The notes beneath the pieces are model-generated. The model was not told the DNA's origin, searched no databases, and saw only the letters and a list, made by a program, of their open reading frames with translations. The position numbers and the translations under genes are program-made. This document shows, piece after piece, positions 1,357 to 5,057 of a DNA stretch of 5,057 nt. How positions within the stretch are numbered: position 1 is the stretch's first letter; each line of letters begins with the position of its first letter. The stretch is from a virus (Duplodnaviria; Heunggongvirae; Uroviricota; Caudoviricetes): the IMG/VR virus record IMGVR_UViG_3300029749_000526; one strand, given 5' to 3'.

Positions 1357-1367
1357 GTGGAGTGGAT

Positions 1368-3764
1368 ATGGCAGCAGTAAAAATCTCAGGTGTGCTGAAA
1401 GATGGTGCGGGAAAACCAATACAGAACTGCACTATTCAACTGAAGGCAAAGCGTAACAGCACCACGGTACTGGTGAACACGGTGGCTTCTGAAAATCCGG
1501 ATGAAGCCGGACGTTACAGCATGGATGTTGAGTATGGCCAGTACAGCGTCACCCTGCTGGTTGAAGGTTTTCCGCCTTCACATGCCGGGACCATTACCGT
1601 CTATGAAGGTTCCAGACCAGGTACGCTGAATGATTTTCTCGGTGCCATGACGGAAGATGATGTCATGCCGGAGGCATTGCGCCGTTTTGAGGCAATGGTG
1701 GAAGAAGCGGCACGCAACGCCGAAGCCGCCTCTCAGAGCGCAGCGGCGGCAAAGAAATCCGAAACTGCAGCGGCATCATCGAAGAACGCGGCGAAAACCT
1801 CAGAAACGAATGCAGCTAACAGCGCACAGGCGGCAGCGGCCTCGCAGACTGCATCGGCAAACTCCGCGACAGCAGCCAAAAAATCAGAAACCAACGCGAA
1901 AAATAGCGAGACAGCCGCAAAGACGAGCGAAACCAACGCAAAGTCCAGCCAGACGGCAGCGAAGACCAGCGAAACGAATGCCAAAGCCAGCGAAACTGCG
2001 GCGAAAAGCAGTCAGGATGCAGCAGCTGAAAGCGAGAGTGCCGCAGCTGGTTCTGCGACTTCAGCAGCTGGATCAGCAACTGCTGCGGCTAACAGCCAGA
2101 AAGCAGCGAAGACGAGCGAAACCAACGCAAAGTCCAGCCAGACGGCAGCGAAGACCAGCGAAACGAATGCCAAAGCCAGCGAAACTGCGGCGAAAAGCAG
2201 TCAGGATGCAGCAGCTGAAAGCGAGAGTGCCGCAGCTGGTTCTGCAAGTGCGGCGGCTGCTTCTGCCACTGCATCAGCAAACAGTCAAAAAGCTGCAAAA
2301 ACCAGTGAAACCAACGCAAAGGCGAGCGAGACTGCGGCGGCTAACTCGGCGCAAGCATCGGCAGCAAGCCAGACAGCAGCTAAAGCAAGTGAAGACGCAG
2401 CCAGAGAGTATGCAAGTCAGGCAGCAGAGCCGTATAAATATGTCTTACAGCCACTGCCTGATGTGTGGATACCGTTTAACGATTCACTGGAAATGATTAC
2501 TGGTTTCGCCCCAGGTTATAAAAAAGTCACTATCGGTGATGATGTTATTACTTTTCCATCAGAGAAGGTTGTATCTTTCACCCGCTCTACTTCTGCAACA
2601 TATATAAACAAATCAGGTTCGTTTACTTTTGCAGAAATTAACGAGCCGCGCTTTGAAAAGGAAGGTTTATTAATTGAAGGTCAGAGGACAAATACATTTA
2701 CTAATAGCAATAATCCTTCATTATGGAACTATGACGACAAGAATATAGAAATAACCACATCGGTTGATGAATATGGTTTTAAATATGGTTTGTTCGATGT
2801 AAAGGAAACATCAACCACTGAAAGGGCGACGATAATATCTACTGGATACAGTAGGGTTATTGATGTTGCTGCAAATGAATCTGTTACCTTGTCCTGTAGG
2901 GTTAAGAAGATAAATGGAGAAGGTATTATAACGTTAAGACCCAGAATATCTTTCGTTAACGATGACGGCACAAGCAACACGCTGGTAGCTGGTTCCTACA
3001 TAGATTGCGAAACTGGTGATGTTTTAGGTTTTTCTGGTGGGGATGCTGTAAATCATGTCATATACAGAGAAGCTAACGGATGGTTACGCGTCGAATTTAC
3101 ATATAAATCACCAGAAGCAAAAAGCATGTATGGGCGCTTTGAAATGGGAGCAGATAAAAGGGCGATCAAAAAAGGCGATCAGATAATGTTTACTACGCCG
3201 CAATTTGAAAAAGGATCGTGTGCATCATCATTTATCGTTACATCAGATGTGGCAGTTACACGGGCTAGTGACGTGGTAATAATGCCAATAAGACTGAACT
3301 GGTCAACACCTCCGTTAAGCGTTCTTATGGAAGTTAATATCAACTGGGACAAAATGCCAAACAGTGAAGGTTCAGCAAGGCTTCTTAACGTGTCAATAAC
3401 TGGCGCAACAACGGATGTTGCTGATGAAAGTTATATGTATTTTGGTTTTACCTCTGGAGGCGCGCGCTCAATTATAACTAACGGAAAAGGAACAAAGACC
3501 GAGTATAAAGCCTACTGTAACAGGACAACCCGCAGGTTTATTGCTGGGTTTAAGTTTACAGAGCAGAAAGAATTGCGTGCTGTTATAAACGGTAACTTTG
3601 GCGCTGTTGGTGTATCACAACACACAAGACAACGTTATACAGAAGGGCCAATAAATATAGGCGGTCAATCAATATCAGGTAACAGGCATTTATTTGGACA
3701 CGTGCGCAATTTACGTATCTGGCATAAGGAACTGACAGATGCACAAATGGGAGAAAGAATATAA
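1368..3764 (+). CDS. stf: Side tail fibre protein (lambda Stf-like N-terminus and repetitive shaft, with a divergent C-terminal distal domain)
   Basis: Long ORF ending at TAA 3762-3764. I place the start at ATG 1368 (GGAG at 1359-1362, 5-nt spacer) rather than the in-frame GTG at 1362 used by the ORF track. The N-terminus (MAAVKISGVLKDGAGKPIQNCTIQLKA…RYSMDVEYGQYSV…GFPPSHAGTITVYE) matches my recollection of the lambda Stf N-terminal region. The central region is Ala/Ser/Thr-rich with reiterated KTSETNAK-type motifs, typical of fibre shafts. The C-terminal ~440 aa are compositionally distinct and not lambda-like. Confidence 0.85.
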   Translation: MAAVKISGVLKDGAGKPIQNCTIQLKAKRNSTTVLVNTVASENPDEAGRYSMDVEYGQYSVTLLVEGFPPSHAGTITVYEGSRPGTLNDFLGAMTEDDVMPEALRRFEAMVEEAARNAEAASQSAAAAKKSETAAASSKNAAKTSETNAANSAQAAAASQTASANSATAAKKSETNAKNSETAAKTSETNAKSSQTAAKTSETNAKASETAAKSSQDAAAESESAAAGSATSAAGSATAAANSQKAAKTSETNAKSSQTAAKTSETNAKASETAAKSSQDAAAESESAAAGSASAAAASATASANSQKAAKTSETNAKASETAAANSAQASAASQTAAKASEDAAREYASQAAEPYKYVLQPLPDVWIPFNDSLEMITGFAPGYKKVTIGDDVITFPSEKVVSFTRSTSATYINKSGSFTFAEINEPRFEKEGLLIEGQRTNTFTNSNNPSLWNYDDKNIEITTSVDEYGFKYGLFDVKETSTTERATIISTGYSRVIDVAANESVTLSCRVKKINGEGIITLRPRISFVNDDGTSNTLVAGSYIDCETGDVLGFSGGDAVNHVIYREANGWLRVEFTYKSPEAKSMYGRFEMGADKRAIKKGDQIMFTTPQFEKGSCASSFIVTSDVAVTRASDVVIMPIRLNWSTPPLSVLMEVNINWDKMPNSEGSARLLNVSITGATTDVADESYMYFGFTSGGARSIITNGKGTKTEYKAYCNRTTRRFIAGFKFTEQKELRAVINGNFGAVGVSQHTRQRYTEGPINIGGQSISGNRHLFGHVRNLRIWHKELTDAQMGERI
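1920..2245 (+). repeat. In-frame tandem direct duplication inside the stf shaft region (two copies of about 137 bp at a 189-bp period)
   Basis: The segment about 1920-2056 (…gacgagcgaaaccaacgcaaagtccagccagacggcagcgaagaccagcgaaacgaatgccaaagccagcgaaactgcggcgaaaagcagtcaggatgcagcagctgaaagcgagagtgccgcagctggttctgc) recurs at about 2109-2245 with apparent nucleotide identity. It encodes AKTSETNAKSSQTAAKTSETNAKASETAAKSSQDAAAESESAAAGSA twice. The 189-bp period equals 63 codons, so frame is preserved. Confidence 0.8.
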
Positions 3765-4045
3765 TGCGAGACTTAACCCTCAAATTCATAAACAAGGCCG
3801 ACTTTTCGGCCTTTATGGATAGCATTGGTTATGAAGATGACGAGGTAATGCAGAACAATGTTCTCATTGATGTGATAGGTAACGTGTACAAAGAAACCGG
3901 AGAACTTACTGAAGATGGCGAACCGGTATGTGTTAAGGAAGACGGATATTTTGTAAACGTGCGCATCATTAATGATGTGAAAACACCGTCAATATTCGAT
4001 GAATACGTGGTTGCTGTTGAGCATCAACTTCGTGGCTGGATGTGA
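3764..4045 (+). CDS. Hypothetical small acidic protein (93 aa), translationally coupled to stf; possible fibre accessory or chaperone protein
   Basis: The ATG at 3764-3766 overlaps the stf TAA stop (ATAATG) by 1 nt. GGGAGA lies upstream at 3749-3754. The ORF ends at TGA 4043-4045. The translation has 19 Asp/Glu against 8 Lys/Arg (estimated net charge about -11). I recognise no family from the sequence alone. Confidence 0.55.
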   Translation: MRDLTLKFINKADFSAFMDSIGYEDDEVMQNNVLIDVIGNVYKETGELTEDGEPVCVKEDGYFVNVRIINDVKTPSIFDEYVVAVEHQLRGWM

Positions 4046-4054
4046 GGGAGACAA

Positions 4055-4756
4055 ATGGCTACATCGACAGTAATTCCAGGAGATATCACCACGCTAAAGG
4101 GAGATGTCAGTAAAACTAAGGAAGATATTTCCTCAATTAACGGAAAAGTATCAACGCTTCAGATTGATATGACCAGTGCAAAGCAGGATATCAGCACCAG
4201 ATACACAAAAACTGAAGTTGATAATAAGCTGAAAAACAAAGTGGAAGCGAACGATCTGGAAAGCGGTCGTTATGGCGGTGATTTTTACCCGCTGACAGGT
4301 CGTGAAGCGTTTTATTTATGGAATTTGGCCACGACTACAGCTGCGGCAAACCTTTATCTTAATCCTGACCCCGCAATTTCGTCTGTTCTGCGGTCAACAT
4401 CGTCTATCCGCTATAAACATTCAGTAGAGACGATAGATTCAGAGCACGCCGATCTCATTTTCAAGATGCGCCCTGTGTGGTACAGGTCGCAATGCGAAAA
4501 TGACAGGCGTGACTGGGGATTCTACGGATTGATTGCCGAGGAAGTAGGAGAAATTGCCCCTCAGTTTGTACACTGGCGACCAGCTAACGAAGATGATGCA
4601 CCGGAAGCTATTTCCAGCAATGGCCTTGTTGCCGAAGGTGTGATGTACGAACGTCTGGTTGTTCCACTGATTCACCATATCCAGAAACTGACAGAAAGAG
4701 TTGATGAACTTGAGTCAGAATTAAAGCTGTTATCAACTTCCCGAAGCGATATCTGA
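4055..4756 (+). CDS. Tail-fibre-like protein with an N-terminal coiled-coil segment and a C-terminal peptidase S74-like intramolecular chaperone domain
   Basis: AGGGAG Shine-Dalgarno at 4045-4050, 4 nt before ATG 4055. The C-terminal ~115 aa (SSIRYKHSVETIDSEHADLIFKMRPVWYRSQ…GFYGLIAEEVGEIAPQFVHW…GLVAEGVMYERLVVPLIHHIQKLTERVDELESELKLL) follow the pattern I recall for the S74 chaperone-of-endosialidase domain (SDxxLKxNI…L+PVxY…GxIAQEVxxxxPElV…, ending in a coiled-coil). The N-terminal ~100 aa (DITTLKGDVSKTKEDISSINGKVSTLQIDMTSAKQDIS…) are heptad-like. Confidence 0.75.
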   Translation: MATSTVIPGDITTLKGDVSKTKEDISSINGKVSTLQIDMTSAKQDISTRYTKTEVDNKLKNKVEANDLESGRYGGDFYPLTGREAFYLWNLATTTAAANLYLNPDPAISSVLRSTSSIRYKHSVETIDSEHADLIFKMRPVWYRSQCENDRRDWGFYGLIAEEVGEIAPQFVHWRPANEDDAPEAISSNGLVAEGVMYERLVVPLIHHIQKLTERVDELESELKLLSTSRSDI

Positions 4757-4769
4757 TAAAGGAGGAGTA

Positions 4770-5057
4770 ATGGATATAAGCCCCTTACTTCATGCGCTTT
4801 GTGCTGTGGCTGCGCAGGTACTGGTTGGTTTTTTTACCGGAAACTGGGCTTACGGGGCGATAGCCGGTTGTACATTCTTCATTGCGCGGGAACACACCCA
4901 GGCAGAATATCGCTGGATTGAAATGTTCGGGCATGGCAAGCGGATTAACATGCCATGGTGGGGCGGTTTTGATCCACGTGCATGGGATGTGGCAAGCCTG
5001 ATGGATTTTGCTGTGCCGGTGGTGGCGTGTCTGCTGATCTGGATGTTGATCCGTTAA
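4770..5057 (+). CDS. Hypothetical small membrane protein (95 aa, 2-3 predicted transmembrane segments); possible moron or superinfection-exclusion candidate
   Basis: Strong Shine-Dalgarno AAAGGAGGA at 4758-4766, 3 nt before ATG 4770. The ORF ends at TAA 5055-5057. Hydrophobic stretches at residues ~5-22 and ~26-39 (PLLHALCAVAAQVLVGFF, WAYGAIAGCTFFIA) and ~74-94 (VASLMDFAVPVVACLLIWMLI) are separated by a charged, Trp-rich loop (REHTQAEYRWIEMFGHGKRINMPWWGGFDPRAW). It starts 13 nt after the preceding gene. Confidence 0.6.
   Translation: MDISPLLHALCAVAAQVLVGFFTGNWAYGAIAGCTFFIAREHTQAEYRWIEMFGHGKRINMPWWGGFDPRAWDVASLMDFAVPVVACLLIWMLIR

What the first reader, a model, noticed from the sequence alone, without database searches (positions are those of the whole stretch)
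3764..5057. Compact three-gene cassette downstream of the swapped fibre tip; possible co-inherited host-range or accessory module
Three ORFs are packed with 1-nt overlap, 9-nt and 13-nt spacers, all on the + strand, each with its own Shine-Dalgarno, and with no terminator-like hairpin seen between them. Together with the compositional break inside stf, the simplest model is that the Stf distal domain plus these genes were acquired as one unit. The combination (novel fibre tip, acidic coupled ORF, S74-type protein, membrane protein) is not the canonical lambda stf-tfa arrangement and may be an undescribed adsorption or exclusion system. Whether the module continues beyond 5057 cannot be seen.
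Basis: inference. Interest (0 to 1): 0.55.

Follow-up and report, generated by a model that had tools for sequence, protein, structure and literature searches.

The report
Modular side-tail-fibre accessory genes of prophage
The three packed genes are real, but they are the ordinary and very common downstream half of a mix-and-match side-tail-fibre locus of E. coli prophages (small fibre partner protein, exchangeable second mini-fibre, small membrane protein), not a unit acquired together with this particular fibre tip.

Summary
Observation confirmed. There are three + strand genes (3764-4045, 4055-4756, 4770-5057) with a 1-nt overlap, 9-nt and 13-nt spacers, Shine-Dalgarno sites and no terminator between them. 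All three are under purifying selection.

Interpretation only partly supported. The order Stf – orf93 – [second fibre] – orf95 is a conserved architecture, but its parts reassort.
- This Stf tip occurs at >=95% in about 9 of 5,426 complete E. coli genomes. orf93 occurs in 970, the ORF2 core in 746 and orf95 in 1,900.
- The same tip plus an identical orf93 occurs with a different ORF2 allele.
- The same ORF2 follows tips that are only about 40% identical.

What each gene is:
- orf93 (93 aa, pI 4.2) always accompanies this lectin-like tip family in lambdoid, T1-like, T5-like, 9g-like and rV5-like phages. It is probably an assembly factor or adaptor.
- ORF2 is a short distal fibre. It has a conserved N-terminal docking peptide and a C-terminal S74 self-cleaving chaperone (Ser116/Lys121). 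It is homologous in layout to IrisVonRoten Gp24 and SIA3lw ORF44.
- orf95 is a three-helix membrane protein of unknown function. Its family sits just after receptor-binding genes in sipho-, myo- and podophages.

The prophage ends about 400 nt after orf95. This is ordinary biology containing two uncharacterised families.

The parts
1362..3764 (+). stf, side tail fibre (800 aa), shown as context. The N-terminal tail-attachment domain and Ala-rich shaft are conserved up to residue ~370 (nt ~2470). The lectin-like distal half (residues 371-800) is the partner of orf93.
   Evidence: Pfam phage_tail_N 1e-66. NCBIfam GTA_spike_fiber domain at residues 437-635. Tip identity to other phages is 38-42% against 92-97% for the N-terminal part. 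Conserved and variable blocks were mapped.
3764..4045 (+). orf93: a 93-aa acidic protein (pI 4.2) translationally coupled to stf. It belongs to family phrog_1361 and is the invariable genomic partner of this Stf tip family. It is a probable fibre assembly factor or adaptor.
   Evidence: dN/dS 0.27-0.49. No Pfam, NCBIfam or PADLOC match.
4055..4756 (+). ORF2: a 233-aa short distal fibre subunit with a C-terminal S74 intramolecular chaperone. It is an exchangeable allele of the 'second fibre' slot.
   Evidence: Pfam PF13884. phrog_3299 and tail-fibre phrogs. Match to a T5-like L-shaped fibre, 8hqz_d. Allele survey. dN/dS 0.09-0.19.
4055..4102 (+). Conserved N-terminal docking peptide of ORF2 (MATSTVIPGDITTLKG; family motif M-[AV]-T-x-T-V-I-P-x-D-I-x-x-L-K).
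   Evidence: It is shared by otherwise unrelated ORF2-slot proteins of lambdoid, Nonagvirus, Drexlerviridae and T5-like phages, including IrisVonRoten Gp24.
4400..4753 (+). S74 intramolecular chaperone region of ORF2 (residues 116-233). The predicted nucleophile is Ser116 (4400-4402) and the base is Lys121 (4415-4417). Cleavage would leave a 115-aa mature chain.
   Evidence: The Pfam match starts at residue 116, which is model position 1. The S-[DS]-x-R-x-K motif aligns in six ORF2-slot proteins.
4770..5057 (+). orf95: a 95-aa three-helix membrane protein of family phrog_1443. It is the last gene of the prophage arm. Its family lies next to receptor-binding-protein (RBP) genes in many phage types.
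   Evidence: AF2 pLDDT 94.7 with helices 4-23, 26-53 and 74-94. Hydropathy. Contexts. dN/dS 0.18-0.30.
3750..3753 (+). Shine-Dalgarno-like GGAG upstream of orf93.
4046..4050 (+). Shine-Dalgarno-like GGGAG upstream of ORF2.
4760..4765 (+). Shine-Dalgarno AGGAGG upstream of orf95.

Best explanation
Positions 3764-5057 are the downstream half of a modular, multi-protein side-tail-fibre locus at the end of the late operon of a lambdoid prophage.

Shown: the locus has fixed slots whose contents are exchanged by recombination. Slot 1 is Stf, with a conserved tail anchor and shaft and a highly diversified lectin-like distal half. Slot 2 is orf93, always present directly behind this tip family and start/stop-coupled to it. 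Slot 3 is optional and allelic. It holds a protein with a conserved 15-residue N-terminal peptide, a variable middle of 98-470 residues and a C-terminal S74 domain with the Ser/Lys dyad intact. Slot 4 in lambdoids is orf95.

Inferred mechanism for ORF2. It trimerises with the help of its own S74 chaperone, which then cuts itself off at Ser116. The 115-residue mature chains (shaft repeats plus a small tip) dock through the conserved N-terminal peptide onto the distal part of Stf. This gives a branched fibre with two receptor-binding modules, as modelled for IrisVonRoten Gp22/Gp24 and shown genetically for DT57C LtfA/LtfB.

Inferred mechanism for orf93. It acts at the Stf tip as an assembly factor and/or as the adaptor that carries the docking site. 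It has a role independent of ORF2, because phage 21-type loci keep it without ORF2.

Inferred mechanism for orf95. It is not a virion part. It is an inner-membrane protein co-transcribed late. Because it accompanies unrelated fibre and spike genes in many phages regardless of their specificity, it most likely acts on a conserved host-envelope target, for example to limit superinfection or re-adsorption, or to alter surface glycan display. This last step is the weakest (about 0.25).
For: Architecture and reassortment. In the orf93-centred set, 78 of 78 untruncated loci carry an ORF2-slot gene (31 of the 233 type, 47 of the 346 type), and 66 of 68 carry orf95. There are 15 tip clusters, 5 of them seen with both alleles.

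Genome counts: tip at >=95% in ~9 genomes, orf93 in 970, ORF2 in 746 and orf95 in 1,900, out of 5,426.

ORF2 as a fibre subunit: S74 domain with Ser116/Lys121. All six ORF2-slot proteins tested end in S74. Tail-fibre phrogs match and T5-like L-shaped fibre 8hqz matches. The N-terminal motif is shared with IrisVonRoten Gp24, which the BASEL authors model as a distal fibre on proximal Gp22. SIA3lw ORF44, which sits in the same slot, was detected in virions by mass spectrometry. A full-length 58% homologue exists in the virulent T1-like phage tunzivis.

orf93 tied to the tip: it is found directly after a tip-family fibre in five phage groups, always with overlapping or abutting start and stop. 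It is retained without ORF2 in phage 21 and in 45 of 80 orf95-centred loci.

orf95: a confident three-helix model. It lies directly after RBP genes in P22-like Gally, a P2-like Leclercia prophage, a P2-like Aeromonas prophage, a Kuttervirus-like Salmonella contig, Citrobacter (pectate-lyase spike), E. coli (SGNH-domain protein), phiHAP-1 (after tfa) and Comamonas (after J).

Purifying selection on all three genes.
Against: No structure is available for orf93 (AF2 pLDDT 43), so 'chaperone' and 'adaptor' cannot be told apart. There is no proteomic evidence for it: the SIA3lw gel bands only covered 19-132 kDa.

Docking of ORF2 on Stf is inferred from homology of a 15-residue peptide and from a published model of another phage. 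It was not tested here.

The mature ORF2 is only 115 residues, so it may bind nothing. BASEL records label short homologues 'putative lateral tail fiber chaperone'.

orf95 has no informative homologue or fold match. One homologue (57% identical) lies in a non-prophage region of an Aeromonas chromosome, and two phage contexts are uninterpretable. RBP adjacency could reflect hitch-hiking at a recombination boundary rather than function.
Confidence: 0.6

Rival explanations
1. One co-inherited host-range or exclusion cassette. The novel Stf tip and the three downstream genes entered as a single unit and work together as a new adsorption or exclusion system.
For: Low G+C runs from ~2450 through orf93 into ORF2. 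The genes are tightly packed with no terminator. In four IMG/VR loci and several genomes the same tip is followed by the same three genes.
Against: The same tip plus an identical orf93 occurs with another ORF2 allele. The same ORF2 follows at least 5 tip types only ~40% identical. Genome frequencies differ about 80- to 200-fold between the tip and the downstream genes. orf95 is shared with P22-like, P2-like and other phages.
Confidence: 0.07
2. The short ORF2 is not a fibre. It is a trans-acting S74-type chaperone that folds the Stf tip, which has neither its own intramolecular chaperone nor a Tfa.
For: Half of ORF2 is the chaperone domain. Short homologues are annotated 'putative lateral tail fiber chaperone' or 'chaperone of endosialidase' in deposited phages. 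The Stf tip has no S74 or Tfa partner.
Against: The slot also holds 346-580-aa alleles with large pre-chaperone domains and the same N-terminal peptide. One of these is a virion protein and one is modelled as a distal fibre. Phage 21-type loci have the same tip family with no ORF2 at all, so the tip does not need ORF2. From my own knowledge, S74 domains act in cis on the chain they are part of; this was not tested here.
Confidence: 0.13
3. orf95 is a lysis-related membrane protein (holin, antiholin or similar) rather than an envelope or adsorption factor.
For: It is small with three hydrophobic helices. In one E. coli prophage it lies directly upstream of two holins, an endolysin and a spanin. 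In the Comamonas prophage it precedes three small unannotated ORFs. Four of 88 family members give weak Phage_holin_8 hits.
Against: Profile comparison with a genuine Phage_holin_8 protein gives probability 0.5%. orf95 has no charged C-terminal tail and has a strongly conserved polar motif (REHTQAEYRW...MPWWGGF), which is atypical for holins. In lambdoid, P22-like and P2-like contexts it is far from the lysis genes but next to RBP genes.
Confidence: 0.1
4. orf93 is purely a cytoplasmic Tfa-like chaperone that is absent from virions and has nothing to do with docking ORF2.
For: It occupies the position and coupling of tfa behind stf. It is retained where ORF2 is absent. It is small and acidic.
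Against: There is no sequence relation to Caudo_TAP. orf93 clades track the presence or absence of ORF2 perfectly in 158 loci: the window clade and a third clade always occur with ORF2, and the phage 21 clade never does. These loci are not phylogenetically independent. The IrisVonRoten record calls Gp23 a 'tail fiber protein'.
Confidence: 0.3

Closest known systems
Lateral tail-fibre locus of T5-like phage IrisVonRoten (Bas32): Gp22 proximal fibre, Gp23, Gp24 T-shaped distal fibre (PMC11990801)
   Same: The three-gene layout and spacing are the same. The Gp22 distal half is 41.7% identical to Stf 371-800. Gp23 is 40% identical to orf93. Gp24 shares the N-terminal M-x-T-x-TVIPxDIxxLK peptide and the C-terminal S74 domain.
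   Different: Gp24 is 574 aa with two large receptor-binding domains, whereas ORF2 keeps only 115 pre-chaperone residues. The host phage is virulent and T5-like. There is no orf95 homologue. The paper does not assign a role to the 92-aa Gp23.
Branched L-shaped tail fibres LtfA/LtfB of T5-like phages DT57C and DT571/2 (PMC4728585, PMC10713586)
   Same: A tail-anchored proximal fibre carries a second, separately encoded fibre that lacks a tail anchor, docks by a short conserved N-terminus and ends in an S74 domain.
   Different: LtfA itself ends in S74, and no small intervening gene is described. Here Stf ends in a lectin-like domain and is followed by orf93. I did not compare the LtfB N-terminus with ORF2.
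Lambda stf-tfa (and Mu/P2-type fibre plus Tfa chaperone)
   Same: The genomic position after J and lom is the same. The Stf N-terminal domain and shaft are the same (Pfam phage_tail_N). A small gene is coupled to the fibre gene's stop codon.
   Different: No protein here matches the Tfa family. The distal half of Stf belongs to a different family. Additional genes are present.
Endosialidase / T5 pb1 C-terminal intramolecular chaperone (Peptidase_S74, PF13884)
   Same: The domain is present above the Pfam cutoff, with the Ser-x4-Lys motif at the predicted cleavage site.
   Different: It is carried by a very short, separately encoded chain rather than by a long spike or fibre.
Exclusion or conversion genes encoded next to RBP genes (T5 llp, phi80/N15/HK022 cor; epsilon15/D3 small O-antigen polymerase inhibitors). 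Recalled from my own knowledge as a functional analogy for orf95.
   Same: A small envelope protein is encoded immediately beside the genes that determine adsorption. In P22-like Gally it sits in the classical conversion slot between tailspike and int, behind a terminator-like hairpin.
   Different: orf95 has no lipobox and no sequence match to any such family. It does not co-vary with RBP specificity. It also occurs in what looks like a virulent Kuttervirus-type genome.

Membership tests
Peptidase_S74 intramolecular-chaperone fibre/spike proteins (ORF2) | C-terminal PF13884 domain above the curated cutoff | tested here: met
   27.6 bits against a cutoff of 22, residues 116-172.
Peptidase_S74 intramolecular-chaperone fibre/spike proteins (ORF2) | Catalytic Ser and Lys (S-x4-K) at the start of the domain | tested here: met
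   Ser116 and Lys121 (SSIRYK) align with SDxRLK in five other slot proteins.
Peptidase_S74 intramolecular-chaperone fibre/spike proteins (ORF2) | Autoproteolytic release of the chaperone after trimerisation | not testable with these tools
   Needs protein expression, with an S116A control.
Multi-subunit / branched lateral tail fibre (IrisVonRoten Gp22-24, DT57C LtfA/B type) | Proximal fibre with a tail-attachment N-terminus | tested here: met
   Stf matches Pfam phage_tail_N at 1e-66.
Multi-subunit / branched lateral tail fibre (IrisVonRoten Gp22-24, DT57C LtfA/B type) | Separately encoded distal subunit without a tail anchor but with a conserved N-terminal docking peptide | tested here: met
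   The motif is shared across lambdoid, T1-like, 9g-like and T5-like slot proteins.
Multi-subunit / branched lateral tail fibre (IrisVonRoten Gp22-24, DT57C LtfA/B type) | Distal subunit physically present in the virion and attached to the proximal fibre | not testable with these tools
   Shown only for the homologous slot protein of SIA3lw by mass spectrometry and modelled for IrisVonRoten.
Lambda-type Stf-Tfa pair | Downstream Tfa chaperone of the Caudo_TAP family (PF02413) | tested here: not met
   No Pfam match for orf93, ORF2 or orf95 at E<=0.1, and none among 10 orf93 relatives at E<=1.
Known superinfection-exclusion or defence proteins (Cor, Llp, Imm, Sie; PADLOC systems), considered for orf95 | Sequence match to a described family | tested here: not met
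   No match in Pfam, NCBIfam or PADLOC.
Known superinfection-exclusion or defence proteins (Cor, Llp, Imm, Sie; PADLOC systems), considered for orf95 | Lipoprotein signal (Cor/Llp type) | tested here: not met
   No L-[AS]-[GA]-C lipobox. The N-terminus reads MDISPLLHALCAV.
Holins (Phage_holin_8), considered for orf95 | Profile-level homology to a family member | tested here: not met
   hhalign probability 0.5% against the Phage_holin_8 protein of L025. Only 4 of 88 relatives give sub-threshold hits.

The most novel reading that the evidence does not exclude
Two uncharacterised families in this cassette could each define something new. First, orf95 (phrog_1443) could be a pan-phage inner-membrane factor functionally tied to receptor-binding proteins. 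It is found directly after fibre or spike genes of sipho-, myo- and podophages. It may be a new kind of envelope-directed exclusion or anti-readsorption protein that acts on a conserved target rather than on the receptor itself. Second, orf93 (phrog_1361) could be a new class of fibre-tip adaptor or chaperone that creates the branch point of two-module side fibres.
Probability: 0.35. Interest if true: 0.55.

Novelty: new member of a known kind. Interest (0 to 1): 0.33.

Why it matters
Side and lateral tail fibres set phage host range and are being engineered for DNA delivery and therapy. This locus shows a simple plug-and-play grammar with four elements:
- a conserved anchor and shaft;
- a diversified lectin-like tip with an obligatory 93-aa partner;
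- an optional second fibre that plugs in through a 15-residue peptide and folds itself;
- a conserved membrane protein at the end.

The same grammar is shared by temperate lambdoids, including the Qin prophage of E. coli B/BL21 strains, and by virulent T1-, T5- and 9g-like phages. Knowing which pieces are exchangeable and which must travel together is directly useful for chimeric fibre design. The recurrent position of the orf95 family next to RBP genes gives a concrete, cheap hypothesis to test for a family present in about a third of E. coli genomes. The window itself is not surprising.

Tried and rejected
- AlphaFold2 of orf93 with 35 relatives (78-96% identical to the query) gave pLDDT 43, so no fold search was attempted on it. 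A profile search with distant relatives still listed only close homologues.
- Fold searches with the confident orf95 model found nothing below E=0.4 in PDB or BFVD. afdb50 was unavailable.
- Pfam, NCBIfam and PADLOC gave no family for orf93 or orf95.
- The weak Phage_holin_8 hits of four orf95 relatives were rejected by profile comparison.
- An exhaustive HMMER search for domain fusions of orf95 found 332 clusters; the 150 listed are 50-146 aa, so no fusion gives a clue.
- Rfam found no RNA family in the window. ARAGORN found no complete tRNA after orf95.
- Promoter-like matches were at chance level, so independent expression of orf95 in this prophage could not be judged.
- Literature searches and the papers read gave no functional statement about the 93-aa or the 95-aa protein.
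- I considered ORF2 as a decayed fragment of a longer fibre, because phrog_3299 aligns it to the last 240 residues of a 1,385-position profile. I rejected this because of strong purifying selection, conservation in a virulent phage and its own conserved N-terminal peptide.

Full report
**What is in the window.** The window is the tail end of a lambdoid prophage.
- It matches the chromosome of E. coli AMSCJX02 at 99.9% over all 5,057 bases.
- It holds the C-terminus of J (13-636), lom (704-1303), stf (1362-3764), and then the three ORFs of the finding.
- In that genome the third ORF is the last prophage gene. About 1 kb without annotated genes follows, containing a hairpin and a fragment that looks like a tRNA 3' end, and then host yodB.

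**Check of the observation.**
- The coordinates, the 1-nt overlap, the 9-nt and 13-nt spacers, and the Shine-Dalgarno motifs (GGAG 3750-3753, GGGAG 4046-4050, AGGAGG 4760-4765) are correct.
- No + strand terminator-like hairpin is found between the genes.
- orf93 is acidic (pI 4.2). ORF2 carries Peptidase_S74 at 116-172, above the Pfam cutoff. orf95 is a membrane protein.
- The G+C break in stf is real. It sits where Stf identity to other lambdoid Stf proteins falls from 92-97% to about 40%, at residue ~370.
- All three ORFs evolve under purifying selection, with dN/dS of 0.09-0.49 against four loci.

**Is it one co-inherited unit? No.**

| Locus | Stf tip identity | orf93 identity | ORF2 identity |
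|---|---|---|---|
| CPww7, first prophage | 98.8% | identical protein | different 346-aa allele; only the first 27 residues align |
| Phage IdasGreatGrand | 39-42% | 81-91% | 96-97% |
| E. coli B strains, Qin prophage | 39-42% | 81-91% | 96-97% |
| CPww7, second prophage | 39-42% | 81-91% | 96-97% |
| ECONIH1 | 39-42% | 81-91% | 96-97% |

- Among 5,426 complete E. coli genomes, this tip is found at >=95% nucleotide identity in about 9. The orf93 clade is in 970, the ORF2 core in 746 and orf95 in 1,900.
- In 80 IMG/VR loci centred on orf93, every locus has a tip-family fibre directly upstream. All 78 untruncated loci have an ORF2-slot gene (31 of the 233-aa type, 47 of the 346-aa type), and 66 of 68 have orf95.
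- In the same 80 loci the tips fall into 15 clusters at 90% identity, and 5 clusters are seen with both ORF2 alleles.
- In 80 loci centred on orf95, 45 have orf93 directly upstream with no ORF2, 26 have the 233-aa allele and 9 the 346-aa allele.
- So the gene order is a conserved architecture, but the tip and the second fibre reassort freely and orf95 is common to all variants.

**orf93.**
- The family (phrog_1361) occurs in 187 deposited phage records.
- In every case I opened, it sits immediately after a long fibre whose distal half belongs to the same family as Stf 371-800, with overlapping or abutting stop and start. The cases are lambdoids (phage 21, Tritos, IdasGreatGrand), Drexlerviridae (tunzivis), Nonagvirus (ESCO3), T5-like phages (IrisVonRoten, SIA3lw) and rV5-like phages (JeffSchatz).
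- The tip family has two strongly variable blocks (about 450-610 and 660-765) set in conserved frames (355-450, 611-650, 765-800). The first block falls within the NCBIfam GTA head-spike-fibre domain hit at 437-635. The BASEL authors describe a galectin-like C-terminal domain in the IrisVonRoten homologue Gp22.
- orf93 stays 80-91% identical among lambdoids while the tips drop to 40%. It therefore does not track receptor specificity and presumably contacts a conserved part.
- It is kept in phage 21-type loci that have no ORF2, so it has a role tied to Stf itself.
- Its clades nevertheless correlate perfectly with the presence or absence of ORF2 in 158 loci that are not independent. This leaves room for an adaptor role.
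- It has no Pfam, NCBIfam or PADLOC match, and the AlphaFold2 model was poor (pLDDT 43).
- I therefore call it a fibre-tip assembly factor and/or adaptor, and I cannot separate the two.

**ORF2.**
- The protein has three parts: a conserved N-terminal peptide; shaft-type repeats similar to those of a T5-like L-shaped fibre, followed by a short tip segment; and an S74 intramolecular chaperone.
- The nucleophile and base are in place (Ser116 and Lys121, SSIRYK), aligned with SDxRLK in the other slot proteins. Cleavage would leave 115 residues.
- All six slot proteins tested (224-580 aa) end in S74. All start with M-[AV]-T-x-TVIP-x-DI-x-x-LK.
- That peptide is shared with IrisVonRoten Gp24, which the BASEL authors model as a distal T-shaped fibre attached to the proximal fibre Gp22.
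- It is also shared with the slot of SIA3lw ORF44, which was detected in purified virions by mass spectrometry.
- A 58% identical full-length homologue exists in the virulent T1-like phage tunzivis.
- The branched LtfA/LtfB fibres of DT57C are a genetically supported precedent.
- I conclude that ORF2 is a short, self-chaperoned second fibre subunit that plugs into Stf.
- The rival view, that it is a trans-acting chaperone as some database records label short homologues, is weakened by two facts. The same slot holds large alleles, and phage 21-type loci have the same tip family without any ORF2.

**orf95.**
- AlphaFold2 gives a confident three-helix model: pLDDT 94.7, helices 4-23, 26-53 and 74-94.
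- The family has a sharply conserved polar motif, FIAREHTQAEYRW...GKR.NMPWWGGF.
- It comprises 332 clusters at 50% identity; the 150 listed are 50-146 aa and none is a fusion.
- It matches no described family or solved fold. Weak holin hits were rejected.
- Its genomic position is striking, because it lies directly after receptor-binding genes of unrelated kinds:

| Context | Gene directly upstream |
|---|---|
| P22-like Gally | tailspike; orf95 follows a strong terminator-like hairpin, in the slot before int |
| P2-like prophage of Leclercia | tail fibre ending in S74 |
| P2-like prophage of Aeromonas | tail fibre |
| Kuttervirus-like Salmonella contig | tailspike; it lies between two tailspike genes |
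| Citrobacter | pectate-lyase spike |
| E. coli prophage | SGNH-domain (Lipase_GDSL_2) protein; the lysis genes lie just downstream |
| phiHAP-1 | tfa |
| Comamonas | J and a 72-aa ORF |

- One homologue lies in a non-prophage region of an Aeromonas chromosome. Two phage contexts are uninformative.
- Because orf95 stays about 90% identical whatever the fibre, it cannot be receptor-specific.
- My best guess, at low confidence, is an inner-membrane protein that acts on a conserved envelope process to the phage's benefit.

**Comparison with what is known.**
- The locus is not a lambda stf-tfa pair, because the Tfa family feature was tested and not met.
- It is a member of the multi-subunit lateral-fibre kind described for T5-like phages. 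Its second subunit is a bona fide S74 protein by sequence.
- The BASEL papers note that lateral fibres of T5-like and small siphoviruses can consist of one large protein or of two or more proteins.
- Neither the 93-aa nor the 95-aa protein is discussed in any paper I could find.

**Verdict.**
- The 'single acquired unit' and 'undescribed system' readings are not supported.
- The region is an ordinary and very widespread modular fibre locus.
- The residual interest lies in two conserved, uncharacterised small proteins with clear genomic logic.

Noticed in passing
window 4770-5057; loci L011, L012, L013, L014, L015, L023, L024, L025: Homologues of the 95-aa membrane protein sit immediately after fibre or tailspike genes in phages of all three morphotypes (lambdoid, P22-like, P2-like, Kuttervirus-like and others), whatever the type of receptor-binding protein. 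I found no description of this association.
   Followed up: partly
L010 6001-6309 (Aeromonas rivipollensis chromosome): A 57% identical orf95 homologue lies in a non-prophage neighbourhood (pirin, RIO1 kinase, two lipid A acyltransferase genes). The family is therefore not strictly phage-borne.
   Followed up: no
window 1362-3764; L004 7368-9764: The window has an intact 800-aa stf ORF, but RefSeq annotates the 99.9% identical copy in AMSCJX02 as a pseudogene fragment plus separate pieces. The shaft contains a 189-nt tandem repeat (1901-2339, 2.3 copies), where assembly or frameshift differences are plausible.
   Followed up: no
window ~2450-2480 (Stf residue ~370): A recombination junction. 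G+C drops from 0.57 to under 0.40, and Stf identity to other lambdoid Stf proteins drops from 92-97% to about 40% at the same place, just before the highly conserved PYKYVLQPLPDVWIPFNDSL segment.
   Followed up: partly
window 2710-3190 and 3340-3655 (Stf residues ~450-610 and ~660-765): Two hypervariable blocks lie inside the lectin-like distal half of Stf, flanked by conserved frames. They are candidate receptor-contact regions.
   Followed up: partly
L018 (E. coli NEBExpress, B lineage) 2677-6034: The Qin prophage of E. coli B strains carries the same orf93-ORF2-orf95 cassette behind an IS3-truncated Stf. It is followed by a tfa remnant and pinQ, which suggests this module replaced an stfQ-tfaQ invertible segment.
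   Followed up: no
L107 2633-2918; L114 3023-3308: A third, strongly diverged orf93 clade (MRDITLRFDNREQF...) was not detected by tblastn with the window or phage 21 proteins. It is paired with ORF2 proteins that start MVTK, as in IrisVonRoten Gp24.
   Followed up: partly
L014 3789-3855 (phage Gally): A strong terminator-like hairpin (9 bp, 6 GC, T-run) lies right after the tailspike gene, followed by a promoter-like site before the orf95 homologue. This resembles a stand-alone moron-like unit, unlike the coupled arrangement in the window.
   Followed up: no
L004 11074-11107 and ~11420-11470 (17-50 and ~360-410 nt beyond the window end): A 9-bp GC-rich hairpin has a T-run only on the minus strand. 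Further on is a fragment resembling a tRNA 3' end (GGTTCAAATCCCCC...CGCCA), although ARAGORN finds no complete tRNA. It is probably the attachment-site repeat that marks the prophage end.
   Followed up: partly
window 4055-4756: phrog_3299 aligns the whole of ORF2 to the last 240 positions of a 1,385-position fibre profile that also matches the Stf shaft. This suggests that one-chain and two-chain versions of this fibre interconvert by gene fission or fusion, as reported for a DT57C-like deletion mutant.
   Followed up: no
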